From NCBI GenBank assembly GCA_944391495.1, contig CALXTU010000004.1, positions 5,041-69,040 on the forward strand: DNA of 64,000 bases. The letters are read 5' to 3'. Shown here one piece after another: positions 26,553 through 28,538 of the stretch. Under the pieces are notes generated by a model that did no database searches, was not told where the DNA came from, and worked only from the letters and a program-made list of their open reading frames with translations. Position 1 is the first letter of the stretch, and the number at the start of each line of letters is the position of its first letter. This DNA is from an uncultured Alphaproteobacteria bacterium. GTDB lineage: Bacteria > Pseudomonadota > Alphaproteobacteria > RF32 > CAG-239. Position numbers and translations under genes: made by a program.

Positions 26553-26590
26553 AAAGGCGGTCGTAAAGGCCGCCTTAATATTTTTTTATT
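26553..26590. terminator. Bidirectional terminator between lon and the convergent gene
   Basis: ggcgg-tcgtaaa-ggccgcc hairpin flanked by A- and T-tracts. Confidence 0.55.
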
Positions 26591-28160
26591 ATCGGGATTT
26601 TTCTTTCTTCTGAAACATTTTAGCAAAACCTTTCTTGGCTTTAGATGTCTTTTCGGAGGAAACATTAGAAGCTTTTTCTTGTTTGTTTTCCTTCTGCACA
26701 ACTTGTTGTGCCGAGGGATCGGCAACTTCTACCCAAGTTTTAGTATCTTTATTTGTTGTAGTATCTTTATTTATAGATTCTTCTATCTCCTGAATTTTTT
26801 TATCTTTAATCGTCTGACGACGTTTTTTCAAATCCTGCTGTGCCTGTTCCAAGGTTATATTTTGATAATCATTTCTGATTTTCTGCACTTTCTTGTCACT
26901 CATATCCAAATCCAAATTCGACAAGTCAAGTCCGTTGACAAAAGTCTGGAAGGTTTGAAAATCTTTTTTCGTTACGGATGTTTTGCCGTCAATGGAATTC
27001 CATAACTCATTTAAATAAGTCTGATAGTTTTGTTGAGCCTTGGTATATGAATATCCCTGAACCTTGTTCTTGGTATTAGGTATTCCGCCCAAAACATGTT
27101 TGTCGCCATCGCCGGCCCATGACGAGTAGGACGTATGAACCTTTTGACCGTCCGACGATAAAACGGCCGAACCGTCAGCATTGTAAAGAACACCGATTTC
27201 TACGGGGCTCTTAGCCAAAATATCAGGAGATACAACCGGTTCATCACCGGCAGTTTTGTGCAAAACAGAAGTTTTATATTTTCCGTCTTCACTGGCATAT
27301 TGCCAAATACAATAACTGGTGCTGTCAATAGAAACATTTTGCCAGTCGTTGCCGGAGCGTTCAAAAATTTCATAAGTGGTTTCGGGAATGATTTCTTCCA
27401 CCGATTTTGCCAAAACAATGGAGCCCCAGTTTGTATTATAGTTGCGTGTATAACCGTCCAAATGTTTTCCCTTAAAATATTCTGTAGTTTCTTTGGCCGA
27501 TTTTTTATCTCCTTCCTTAAAACAAATTAATTCGGCGAGTATTTCGGCACGTGCTCGGTCCGAAACTTTCATAAATAACGTGCCGTCATACAATTTATCG
27601 CGAACATCAGCCATAAGCGCATGTGTCTTTTCATGGTCGGCAACGGATGCGGAATAATTGTTTTTATTAATGTTATCTATCAGCTGCTGTTCTGCATCGG
27701 TCGGGTTATTTATCCGATATTGGTTATAAACAATGCCGACTCCGTCAATATATTTTCCGGCCGGACGGTGAGAATTATATATGGCATCCAGAGAAGGAAA
27801 TTCTTCTATATGAAGATAATGTTTTATTTGTTTAGATGTCGAAGTCGTATCTTCTTTTATTTGGGATTCGGAATGATCATCTGCCGACGATTCCAGGCCA
27901 TCTACATAATAGGTTGAGTCATCTTTCTCTGCTTGAGAAGATGGCGTATTGACGACAAAAGTTGTTTTTCCTTTTAATTCATTATCTTGAGGTGTCTGGT
28001 CCGTGATGTTTGCTCCCGAGGCAAAAGGTGCCAATCCCAAAAAGAAACCCGCCACAGATGATGCAAACTTATTTATGGAAACATTAGAATTTTGCATTTC
28101 GTCATTTTTTTGCTTCTTTGCTTTAATATTTTTAATACGTTCTAGATAATCAGCATCCAT
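26589..28160 (-). CDS. AT-rich gene for a 523-aa predicted secreted protein with an HExxH motif and a Lys-rich coiled-coil tail
   Basis: A hydrophobic signal-like segment near the N-terminus, an HEKTH motif mid-protein and a K/Q/E-rich C-terminus. Composition is visibly AT-richer than the neighbours. Confidence 0.55.
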   Translation of the reverse strand: MDADYLERIKNIKAKKQKNDEMQNSNVSINKFASSVAGFFLGLAPFASGANITDQTPQDNELKGKTTFVVNTPSSQAEKDDSTYYVDGLESSADDHSESQIKEDTTSTSKQIKHYLHIEEFPSLDAIYNSHRPAGKYIDGVGIVYNQYRINNPTDAEQQLIDNINKNNYSASVADHEKTHALMADVRDKLYDGTLFMKVSDRARAEILAELICFKEGDKKSAKETTEYFKGKHLDGYTRNYNTNWGSIVLAKSVEEIIPETTYEIFERSGNDWQNVSIDSTSYCIWQYASEDGKYKTSVLHKTAGDEPVVSPDILAKSPVEIGVLYNADGSAVLSSDGQKVHTSYSSWAGDGDKHVLGGIPNTKNKVQGYSYTKAQQNYQTYLNELWNSIDGKTSVTKKDFQTFQTFVNGLDLSNLDLDMSDKKVQKIRNDYQNITLEQAQQDLKKRRQTIKDKKIQEIEESINKDTTTNKDTKTWVEVADPSAQQVVQKENKQEKASNVSSEKTSKAKKGFAKMFQKKEKSR

Positions 28161-28538
28161 TTTGACATCTCCCTATCAACTTATAACCCAATATATCACG
28201 TTTTGGAAATTTTGTCTATAAAATATTAGAAAATAAAAGTTAATTTGGCGTTAAAAATATGCCGGATAGGCCATATAAAACATGACGGATTCGTCCGATT
28301 CCGACAGCGATATGAGGATTCGTATTTTAGAAAGAATATTATAAAATCCGCGGATATCCGCCGTTTTAAGCAAAAAGAGGCCGGTTTCTGGGGATAAAAA
28401 GGCCTATTTTGCTAAAAATGTTGATAATTAAGCGGTTTTTGTTTGACAGGGCCTTTTTTTAATGTTCAAATTTTGTTGTGAGCAAGGGAAATCCCTTGGT
28501 TCATTTGTTTATAACTTATATTAGAGGGAGTCCTCACC

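What the first reader, a model, noticed from the sequence alone, without database searches (positions are those of the whole stretch)
26560..28200. AT-rich insertion splitting the conserved lon-hup pair encodes a secreted HExxH protein
- **Position:** lon and hup are normally adjacent. Here a convergent, visibly AT-rich 1.6-kb gene lies between them.
- **Protein:** A 523-aa protein with a signal-like hydrophobic N-terminus, an HEKTH (HExxH) motif mid-protein and a long Lys/Gln/Glu-rich, probably coiled-coil, C-terminus. No family is recognisable.
- **Interpretation:** Composition and position point to horizontal acquisition. It is a candidate secreted metalloprotease or host-interaction factor.
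Basis: partly seen in the sequence, partly recalled or inferred. Interest (0 to 1): 0.6.

Follow-up and report, generated by a model that had tools for sequence, protein, structure and literature searches.

The report
Strain-variable exported HExxH protein between lon and hup
An uncultured gut alphaproteobacterium carries, between the normally adjacent lon and hup genes, a fast-evolving accessory gene for an exported protein that is probably a zinc protease of a family nobody has described.

Summary
A 523-aa ORF (26589-28160, minus strand) lies between lon and hup, converges on lon, and is AT-rich (GC3 0.36 against about 0.57 in neighbouring genes).

- **Family:** It has no Pfam, NCBIfam, PHROG, PADLOC or PDB sequence match. 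It belongs to a tiny family: 23 clusters among 1.84 billion representative proteins.
- **Active-site motif:** All 45 family members that cover the site have one HExxH and a Glu 26-32 residues after the second His. These are 4 of only 9 invariant columns at 20-30% identity.
- **Structure:** A confident AlphaFold model (core pLDDT about 90) puts HEKTH and E210 on consecutive helices after three strands. Foldseek finds no PDB or BFVD neighbour.
- **Export:** All full-length members have a signal-peptide-like N-terminus.
- **Insertion:** Among 49 metagenome loci of the wider clade with lon upstream of hup, 48 have an uninterrupted junction. Two strains with 99.3% identical flanks differ by a 3.85-kb cassette carrying a family member.
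- **Fixed locally:** All 10 contexts sharing this window's HU protein carry the gene.
- **Rate:** It evolves about ten times faster than lon and has swapped 5' and 3' ends.

Best reading: a new gluzincin-like exported metallopeptidase in a recombination hotspot. The substrate is unknown, and no mobile-element marks or donor were found.

The parts
24196..26547 (+). lon (Lon protease). It forms the left, conserved flank of the variable junction. Relatives start at the ATG at 24205 (780 aa).
   Evidence: Pfam Lon_C, LON_substr_bdg, AAA and Lon_lid. It is 99-100% identical in conspecific strains.
26554..26576 (.). GC-rich hairpin flanked by A-run and T-run. It lies between the lon stop (26547) and the stop of the HExxH gene (26589) and is a likely bidirectional terminator for the convergent pair.
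   Evidence: Terminator scan; sequence read.
26548..28190 (.). Variable islet between the conserved flanks. This is the segment that is absent, different or larger in related genomes.
   Evidence: The L026/L027 indel begins right after the lon stop and ends about 300 bp upstream of hup. Alignment with conspecific strains resumes at 28189.
26589..28160 (-). CDS of the 523-aa exported HExxH protein (called X in this report).
   Evidence: ORF list. Homologues at 55-100% identity and 19-30% identity. dN/dS of 0.15-0.56 in the core domains indicates a functional coding gene.
28169..28173 (-). Ribosome-binding site GGGAG, 8 nt upstream of the ATG.
   Evidence: Sequence read.
28190..28218 (-). Sigma-70-like promoter candidate (TAGACA-17-TATATT, with an extended -10 TG) upstream of X.
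   Evidence: Consensus scan. This is a pattern match only.
28011..28160 (-). Residues 1-50: signal-peptide-like N-terminus. It has a long Lys-rich n-region (conserved ERIKxIK helix), the h-region FASSVAGFFLGLAPFA, and ASGA|N as a candidate cleavage site.
   Evidence: Manual n/h/c analysis of 19 family members; alignment.
27825..28010 (-). Residues 51-112: polar, acidic, hypervariable linker or possible pro-segment with low model confidence. Together with the signal peptide it is replaced by an unalignable allele in conspecific strains.
   Evidence: pLDDT below 50 for residues 25-108. About 45% nucleotide identity against 98-100% in the flanks. dS of 1.3-1.8 against 0.11-0.12 for lon.
27381..27824 (-). 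Residues 113-260: putative catalytic domain. It has three strands (114-121, 135-138, 142-150) and helices 155-168, 171-188 (HEKTH), 199-218 (E210), 222-232 and 234-240 (Y237, with Y241 just after).
   Evidence: AlphaFold2 model with pLDDT of about 90-97; invariant columns.
27621..27635 (-). HEKTH (H176, E177, H180), the invariant HExxH motif.
27531..27533 (-). E210, an invariant Glu on the next helix. It is the candidate third metal ligand.
27066..27380 (-). Residues 261-365: beta-rich domain of unknown function.
   Evidence: AlphaFold2 secondary structure, pLDDT 73-94.
26751..27047 (-). Residues 372-470: helical domain, including a 31-residue helix (437-467).
   Evidence: AlphaFold2.
26737..26772 (.). 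18-bp tandem duplication inside the CDS. It accounts for the extra 6 residues (TTNKDT) of this allele compared with the 517-aa alleles.
   Evidence: Tandem repeat finder; alignment A1.
26592..26687 (-). Residues 492-523: Lys-rich C-terminal tail with low model confidence, ending in KKGFAKMFQKKEKSR. It is allelic between strains.
   Evidence: pLDDT below 50. 68-86% nucleotide identity against 98-100% in the flanks. It resembles the E. coli MinD tail KKGFLKRLFGG, which is a lead only.
28539..28811 (+). hup (HU). It forms the right, conserved flank. Its leader (about 28478-28538) is nearly invariant across the clade.
   Evidence: Pfam Bac_DNA_binding; leader conservation.
29575..29650 (+). tRNA-Val (TAC) downstream of hup and the 198-aa ORF.
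   Evidence: ARAGORN; Rfam.

Best explanation
X is an accessory, lineage-restricted gene for a Sec-exported zinc metallopeptidase of an undescribed gluzincin-like family.

**Proposed mechanism**
- The N-terminal signal peptide takes the protein across the inner membrane (inferred).
- A hypervariable, low-confidence linker or pro-segment follows (shown to be variable; its role is inferred).
- In the catalytic domain, H176 and H180 on one helix and E210 on the next helix bind zinc. E177 is the general base, and Y237/Y241 are candidate transition-state residues (inferred from invariance and predicted secondary structure).
- The beta-rich and helical domains would provide substrate binding.
- The basic C-terminal tail may attach the protein to a membrane or the envelope (speculative).

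**Genomic behaviour**
- The gene sits in a recombination hotspot between the conserved lon 3' end and the highly conserved hup leader.
- There it is gained, lost and partly exchanged by homologous recombination (shown by comparison of strains).
- Its rapid, mosaic evolution suggests an extracellular target that itself varies, such as host, phage or competitor molecules. The substrate is unknown.
For: **Motif and structure**
- H176, E177, H180 and E210 are 4 of only 9 invariant columns in 16 sequences at 19-30% identity.
- All 45 members covering the site have exactly one HExxH and a Glu 26-32 residues after the second His.
- The AlphaFold2 model from 25 sequences has mean pLDDT 75.9 and a core of about 90-97. 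HEKTH is in helix 171-188 and E210 in helix 199-218, preceded by three strands.

**Export**
- All 19 full-length members analysed have a short hydrophobic h-region (12-residue core, Kyte-Doolittle 1.1-2.4) followed by small-residue candidate cleavage sites.
- 17 of the 19 also have a net-positive n-region; P0020 and P0021 have a very short, almost uncharged one.

**The gene is functional**
- ORFs are intact in all members.
- Core dN/dS is 0.15-0.56, against 0.02-0.04 for lon.

**Accessory and fast-evolving**
- Lon 99.5% identical corresponds to X 76%; 94.5% to 56%; 80-90% to 24-27%.
- The 5' and 3' ends are mosaic.
- 48 of 49 clade loci have an uninterrupted lon-hup junction.
- L026 and L027 differ by a 3.85-kb cassette within flanks 99.2-99.4% identical.
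- X-positive lineages are scattered across the Lon tree.
- Other AT-rich genes in the window encode toxin- or effector-like domains: Fic, Tlde1 and lysozyme.
Against: - No sequence similarity to any peptidase family was found in Pfam, NCBIfam or PDB. This holds for 25 members, a profile and a consensus sequence.
- Foldseek of the confident model found no zincin, or anything else, below E = 0.02 in PDB or BFVD.
- The helix 155-168 lies between the last strand and the active-site helix, which is not the textbook zincin order.
- The signal-peptide call is manual, because SignalP was not available.
- The n-region is unusually long, so an uncleaved signal anchor is possible.
- No substrate or partner is indicated by the gene neighbourhood in this window.
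Confidence: 0.55

Rival explanations
1. X is an exported metal-binding protein that is not a peptidase. The invariant HExxH...E site would serve another hydrolytic chemistry (glycan, lipid or amide) or a structural or ligand-binding role, for example in an adhesin or surface protein. The HExxH would then be convergent, on a fold unrelated to the zincins.
For: - A confident model has no structural neighbour among the many zincins in the PDB.
- No peptidase profile match was found, even at E = 10.
- The weak top Foldseek hits are beta-rich binding domains such as fHbp, NEAT and toxin B subunits, all non-significant.
- The order of secondary-structure elements departs from canonical zincins.
Against: - HExxH plus a Glu on the following helix, with conserved Tyr residues downstream, is the defining signature of gluzincin peptidases (established knowledge).
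- The catalytic-base Glu (E177) is invariant as well as the two His residues, which a purely structural metal site does not need.
Confidence: 0.2
2. X is a periplasmic, membrane-tethered protease that processes or checks the quality of the cell's own envelope proteins, analogous to HtpX or BepA. The signal sequence would stay uncleaved as an anchor, and the gene would sit next to lon only by chance.
For: - The long, positively charged n-region with a conserved helix before the hydrophobic segment would favour an N-in anchor.
- The low-confidence linker could act as a stalk.
- The gene is present in all 10 conspecific contexts.
Against: - A housekeeping role is hard to reconcile with absence from 48 of 49 related junctions and from a strain with 99.3% identical flanks.
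- X evolves about ten times faster than lon at non-synonymous sites, and whole end segments are swapped between strains.
- The hydrophobic cores are short and are followed by AxA-like sites, which is typical of cleaved signal peptides.
Confidence: 0.1
3. X is the toxin or effector part of an antagonism or defence cassette. The small secreted proteins encoded next to it in some genomes would be cognate inhibitors or immunity proteins.
For: - In L027 and L023 a 166/168-aa protein with a signal-peptide-like N-terminus is encoded directly downstream of X on the same strand.
- X is polymorphic in presence, has mosaic ends and is AT-rich, like the Fic and Tlde1 genes elsewhere in the window.
Against: - The window and most X-positive loci have no such partner gene.
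- The 166-aa and 168-aa proteins have no Pfam match, and their relatedness was not tested.
- There are no PADLOC or PHROG matches.
- No secretion-system genes lie in the locus.
Confidence: 0.1
4. X is a decaying or non-functional ORF left by an old insertion. Low GC and rapid change would reflect loss of constraint.
For: - GC is lower than in neighbouring genes.
- dN/dS is about ten times that of lon, and about 1 in the C-terminal tail between close strains.
Against: - The reading frame is intact in more than 45 sequences down to 19% identity.
- Core dN/dS is well below 1.
- Motif residues are invariant.
- The predicted fold is confident.
- An RBS, a promoter-like site and a terminator are present.
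Confidence: 0.03

Closest known systems
Gluzincin metallopeptidases (MEROPS clan MA(E): thermolysin M4, collagenase M9, M1, M3, M27, M34 and others)
   Same: - Invariant HExxH on a helix.
- Invariant Glu 26-32 residues after the second His, on the next helix.
- Conserved Tyr residues further downstream.
- A beta-sheet N-terminal to the motif helix.
- An exported protein.
The motif spacing falls within the range of known gluzincins (from my own knowledge of these families).
   Different: - No sequence match to any family.
- No Foldseek match to any solved zincin.
- An extra helix lies between the last strand and the active-site helix.
- There is no ExxxD-type second acidic residue after the ligand Glu.
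- The beta-rich and helical C-terminal domains are unique to this family.
Small secreted gluzincins of host-associated bacteria (for example the M34-like Pro-Pro endopeptidases and the M60-like/enhancin mucinases of gut microbes with HExxH-x(8,28)-E)
   Same: Signal peptide, HExxH plus Glu, and occurrence in gut-associated bacteria. This comparison is recalled from the literature and was not tested here beyond the Pfam scans.
   Different: Pfam models of these families do not match X or any of 25 relatives. Domain order and size differ.
Metzincins and aspzincins
   Same: HExxH on a helix.
   Different: - There is no Gly at +3 and no His/Asp at +6 after the second His.
- There is no conserved GTxDxxYG. 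The Asp of the YDG motif is Asn or Glu in several members.
Variable islets between conserved core genes, exchanged by flanking homologous recombination (as for strain-variable surface-protein loci)
   Same: - Clean presence/absence between near-identical strains.
- The same site and orientation in diverged lineages.
- Mosaic allelic ends.
- No integrase, transposase or repeats.
   Different: The cargo is a single orphan-family gene (one to three genes in relatives). The site is the lon-hup junction, for which I know of no earlier description as a hotspot.

Membership tests
Gluzincin (HExxH + Glu) zinc metallopeptidases | HExxH motif conserved across homologues | tested here: met
   Invariant in 16 diverse sequences and in all 45 members that cover the site.
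Gluzincin (HExxH + Glu) zinc metallopeptidases | HExxH lies within an alpha-helix (the active-site helix) | tested here: met
   AlphaFold2 model: helix 171-188 with pLDDT of about 95. This is a prediction, not an experiment.
Gluzincin (HExxH + Glu) zinc metallopeptidases | Third ligand Glu on a following helix | tested here: met
   E210 is invariant and lies in predicted helix 199-218, 26-32 residues after the second His across the family.
Gluzincin (HExxH + Glu) zinc metallopeptidases | The three ligands converge on one metal site in three dimensions | not testable with these tools
Gluzincin (HExxH + Glu) zinc metallopeptidases | Zincin fold: structural similarity to solved zincins | tested here: not met
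Gluzincin (HExxH + Glu) zinc metallopeptidases | Sequence membership in a described peptidase family | tested here: not met
   No match in Pfam, NCBIfam, PDB phmmer or PDB hmmsearch for the protein, 25 relatives, a profile or a consensus sequence.
Gluzincin (HExxH + Glu) zinc metallopeptidases | Zinc-dependent peptide-bond hydrolysis | not testable with these tools
   Requires biochemistry.
Metzincins | Extended motif HExxHxxGxxH/D and a Met-turn | tested here: not met
   After H180 the residues are ALMADV, ASLSKL, RQLSNI and so on. There is no conserved Gly at +3 or His/Asp at +6.
Aspzincins | Asp third ligand in GTxDxxYG downstream of HExxH | tested here: not met
   The only nearby conserved motif is (Y)DG at 191-193, and its Asp is Asn or Glu in several members.
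Sec-dependent secretory proteins (cleavable signal peptide) | Positively charged n-region, hydrophobic h-region of about 10-15 residues, small residues at -1 and -3 | tested here: inconclusive
   Manual analysis finds the h-region and small-residue c-region in 19 of 19 full-length members, and a net-positive n-region in 17 of 19. The n-region is unusually long (20-35 aa) in most. No SignalP-type predictor was available.
Genomic island / mobile element insertion | Presence/absence polymorphism at a fixed site between close relatives | tested here: met
   L026 against L027; census of 48 empty junctions against 1 occupied; patchy distribution on the Lon tree.
Genomic island / mobile element insertion | Mobility marks: integrase or transposase, flanking direct repeats, homologues on plasmids or phages | tested here: not met
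   No such genes or repeats at the indel boundaries. No tblastn match in 72,556 plasmids or 50,697 phages.
Genomic island / mobile element insertion | Atypical base composition relative to the host genome | tested here: inconclusive
   GC3 is 0.355 against about 0.57. X is also less GC-rich than its neighbours in most other lineages examined, but not at L007 or L010. This fits weak constraint as well as foreign origin.
MinD-type C-terminal amphipathic membrane-targeting sequence | Short basic amphipathic C-terminal helix of the KKGFLKRLF type | tested here: inconclusive
   The X tail KKGFAKMFQKK compared with the E. coli MinD tail KKGFLKRLFGG. The motif is present only in the close subgroup and is not conserved in distant members. 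Its function in an exported protein is unknown.

The most novel reading that the evidence does not exclude
X founds a new zinc-metallopeptidase family whose catalytic HExxH...E site sits in a domain arrangement with no counterpart among solved structures. It would act as a strain-variable secreted factor aimed at a host, phage or competitor target in mammalian-gut Alphaproteobacteria. The lon-hup junction would serve as a dedicated recombination hotspot where whole cassettes, and the 5' and 3' gene ends, are swapped between strains.
Probability: 0.3. Interest if true: 0.6.

Novelty: new variant of a known kind. Interest (0 to 1): 0.45.

Why it matters
- **A new enzyme family.** If the biochemistry holds, this adds a peptidase family with no Pfam, MEROPS-type or PDB relative. 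It comes from a poorly known, uncultured group of gut Alphaproteobacteria whose close relatives are common in human gut metagenomes.
- **A candidate interaction factor.** The gene is fixed in one species, absent from most sister lineages, polymorphic between near-identical strains and mosaic at both ends. Genes facing varying external targets often behave this way, so X is a concrete candidate for host or microbe interaction in these organisms.
- **A caution about method.** Low GC plus an interrupted conserved gene pair does not by itself prove recent horizontal transfer.
- **Limits.** The finding does not overturn any established view, and the substrate is unknown.

Tried and rejected
**Searches that found nothing**
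- Pfam, NCBIfam, PHROG and PADLOC scans of X, of 25 relatives, of the excised catalytic region of 10 members and of the profile consensus gave only noise.
- PDB sequence searches with the protein and with a family profile gave no hit.
- Foldseek against PDB and BFVD gave no significant hit.
- tblastn against plasmid and phage collections gave no match.
- A paper search for sample and assembly accessions gave no hit, so the hosts of the X-positive samples remain unknown.

**Steps that failed or were unavailable**
- The first AlphaFold run, on the 11 close homologues, was useless (pLDDT 38).
- A second word-indexed homologue search with the diverse alignment returned only the same 12 proteins.

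**Ideas rejected**
- Metzincin or aspzincin: the motifs are absent.
- Lipoprotein: no lipobox Cys.
- Pseudogene: the frames are intact and the core is under purifying selection.
- Second copy in the window: an HMM search found none.
- Classical mobile island: no mobility genes or repeats.
- "All relatives carry it": true only for the species. The wider clade mostly lacks it.
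Full report
**What is there.** The window holds lon (24196/24205-26547, +), a 523-aa ORF on the minus strand (26589-28160, called X here), and hup (28539-28811, +). These are followed by a 198-aa ORF and tRNA-Val.
- X converges on lon. One hairpin-plus-T-run terminator (26554-26576) lies between the two stop codons.
- X has a GGGAG ribosome-binding site 8 nt before its ATG and a promoter-like site at 28190-28218.
- X has GC 0.385 and GC3 0.355, against lon at 0.497 and 0.588. 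It is among the most AT-rich of 48 ORFs in a window of 46.8% GC.

HEKTH is at residues 176-180. The C-terminus is a helical domain plus a Lys-rich tail of low model confidence, not a long coiled coil.

**Organism.** Exact or near-exact copies of the window's HU, KdtA and Lon occur only in metagenome assemblies and MAGs. Their depositors name them "Alphaproteobacteria bacterium" or "uncultured proteobacterium". Locus L018 is the same genome or a clone of it, with X and Lon both 100% identical. Many related contigs are labelled "human gut metagenome".

**Family.** X matches nothing in Pfam, NCBIfam, PHROGs, PADLOC or PDB sequences.
- A word-indexed search of 5.8 billion proteins found 12 relatives at 55-100% identity.
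- An exhaustive profile search of 1.84 billion cluster representatives found 23 hits. One of them, a repeat protein at E = 5e-6, is probably spurious. The real members go down to about 19% identity.
- None of 25 members, the family profile or the consensus sequence matches a described family or a solved structure.

**Active-site signature.** In an alignment of 16 members that are mostly 19-30% identical to X, only nine columns are invariant: the initiator Met, H176, E177, H180, E210, Y237, Y241, A251 and Y370.
- All 45 distinct family sequences that cover the region carry exactly one HExxH and a Glu 26-32 residues after the second His.
- A lone HExxH would be unremarkable, since AccA in the same window has one. 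This pattern of invariance is not.
- The metzincin motif (HExxHxxGxxH/D) and the aspzincin motif are absent.

**Structure.** AlphaFold2 on the 11 close homologues failed (pLDDT 38). With 25 diverse members it gave mean pLDDT 75.9, with residues 110-490 mostly at 88-98. The predicted layout is:
- three strands (114-121, 135-138, 142-150);
- helix 155-168;
- helix 171-188, carrying HEKTH;
- a conserved YDG loop;
- helix 199-218, carrying E210;
- short helices around Y237 and Y241;
- a beta-rich domain (261-365);
- a helical domain (373-467).

**Export.** All 19 full-length members analysed have a short hydrophobic core followed by small-residue AxA-like sites. 17 of them also have a net-positive n-region.
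- In X the h-region is FASSVAGFFLGLAPFA and the candidate cleavage site is ASGA|N.
- The n-region is long and contains a conserved ERIKxIK helix.
- Residues 51-112 are polar, have low model confidence and are hypervariable. They could be a stalk or a pro-segment.
- The tail KKGFAKMFQKKEKSR resembles the MinD membrane-targeting sequence KKGFLKRLFGG. It is not conserved in distant members, so this is only a lead.

**Is it an insertion?** Both sides of the evidence matter.

Evidence that X is fixed locally and old at this site:
- All 10 distinct contexts carrying the identical HU protein have a 483-523-aa X between lon and hup.
- Homologues only 24-30% identical occupy the same site and orientation in lineages whose Lon is 80-90% identical.

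Evidence that the junction is usually uninterrupted:
- Sister lineages with Lon 86-90% identical have lon directly followed by hup (L026, L030) or an unrelated small ORF (L032).
- In a census of 55 metagenome loci found through the conserved hup leader, 49 have lon upstream. Of these, 48 are uninterrupted (gaps of 250-373 bp) and one carries X.
- L026 and L027 have identical Lon proteins and flanks 99.2-99.4% identical. They differ by a clean 3.85-kb against 124-bp replacement that starts right after the lon stop. The longer version carries an X homologue and two other ORFs.

On a Lon tree, X-positive lineages are scattered among at least nine X-negative ones. No integrase, transposase or flanking repeats are present, and no plasmid or phage carries a homologue.

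The simplest account is one old insertion at this junction, followed by repeated loss and/or exchange through homologous recombination in the conserved flanks. Repeated gain through the same flanks cannot be excluded.

**Rate and mosaicism.**
- Lon 99.5% identical goes with X 76%; 99.1% with 68%; 94.5% with 56%; 80-90% with 24-27%.
- Pairwise dN/dS is 0.27-0.47 for X against 0.02-0.04 for lon. The core domains are mostly at 0.15-0.35, which indicates purifying selection and a functional gene.
- Between the window and strain L024 the flanks are 98-100% identical and the X core is 92-100% identical. The first 360 nt of the gene plus its 5' UTR are unalignable, and the last 400 nt are 68-86% identical.
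- This, together with the allele combinations in alignment A1, shows recombinational swapping of the two ends.

**Composition.** X is less GC-rich than its neighbours in most lineages examined, whatever the genome GC. The examples are L002 (GC3 0.41 against 0.59), L013 (0.24 against 0.33) and L027 (insert GC 0.335 against lon 0.387). The difference is small in L008, and it is absent at L007 and in the off-site copy at L010. This fits mutational AT drift in a weakly constrained gene at least as well as foreign origin. Composition alone therefore does not prove recent transfer.

**Conclusion.**
- The "secreted HExxH metalloprotease candidate" reading is supported by family-wide invariance, predicted helices and signal peptides. 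It remains unproven at the level of fold and activity (confidence 0.55).
- The "insertion" reading is supported relative to the clade norm.
- "Recent horizontal acquisition" is not supported.
- X is best described as a new, orphan, gluzincin-like exported protein family occupying a polymorphic hotspot. This is moderately interesting, mainly as a candidate new peptidase family and interaction factor of gut Alphaproteobacteria.

Noticed in passing
window 28910-29506 (+): A 198-aa ORF directly downstream of hup, conserved at that position in relatives as 198, 211 or 220 aa. It has weak CHAP, amidase and NlpC/P60-like hits (best E = 0.003) and a DCSG-type Cys motif. It has no signal peptide and GC of 0.41.
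   Followed up: partly
window 29864-30137: A 91-bp tandem repeat (3.1 copies, 93% matches) downstream of tRNA-Val. BLAST against conspecific strains shows that copy number and arrangement differ between strains. It generates the repeated spurious ORFs seen at 29812-30267.
   Followed up: partly
window about 28478-28538 (hup leader); loci L001-L032: The 5' leader of hup (CATTTGTTTATAACTTATATTAGAGGGAGTCCTCACC-GTG) is almost invariant across lineages whose Lon is only 80-100% identical. A hairpin precedes it (28483-28498), and its stem sequence changes between lineages while pairing appears to be kept. This could be a regulatory leader.
   Followed up: partly
window 12393-13019 (+) and 13399-14337 (-), next to the tRNA at 14686-14758: Two very AT-rich genes (GC 0.31 and 0.27, against 0.47 for the window). 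The first is a Fic/DOC-family protein. The second has no Pfam match. They lie beside a tRNA gene and look like a small acquired islet.
   Followed up: partly
window 1432-2214 (+) and 2665-3324 (+): AT-rich ORFs with GC of about 0.43. The first has a Tlde1 domain (the L,D-transpeptidase-like type VI effector family). The second has no match.
   Followed up: partly
window 54516-56138 (+): A 540-aa protein with a phage-lysozyme domain at residues 289-414 and lower GC (0.43) than its neighbours.
   Followed up: no
window 23723-23971 (-): A stand-alone 82-aa FliN C-terminal domain gene. It lies between the DUF374-kdtA-lpxK cluster and lon, and is conserved there throughout the clade, with no other flagellar genes nearby.
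   Followed up: no
L027 7380-7880 (-), L027 9853-11142 (-), L023 2411-2917 (-): Cassette companions of X in other strains.
- Small proteins of 166 and 168 aa with signal-peptide-like N-termini are encoded just downstream of X. They could be inhibitors or partners.
- A 429-aa protein without a signal peptide carries two KK-x-WF-x-RLF motifs resembling the basic C-terminal tail of X.
- None has a Pfam match.
   Followed up: partly
L010-L012 (contigs including JAEIGA010033547.1): The most distant X-family branch (about 19% identity, motif HEDGH) is not at lon-hup. It sits in an AT-rich alphaproteobacterial contig near YkuD, an OMP beta-barrel gene and the dacC-tmk-holB cluster. The family is therefore not strictly tied to the lon-hup site.
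   Followed up: partly
window 24196 against 24205: The longest lon ORF starts at the GTG at 24196. Relatives and gene calls start at the ATG at 24205 (MFSQKEKYPL, 780 aa), which is the more likely true start.
   Followed up: partly
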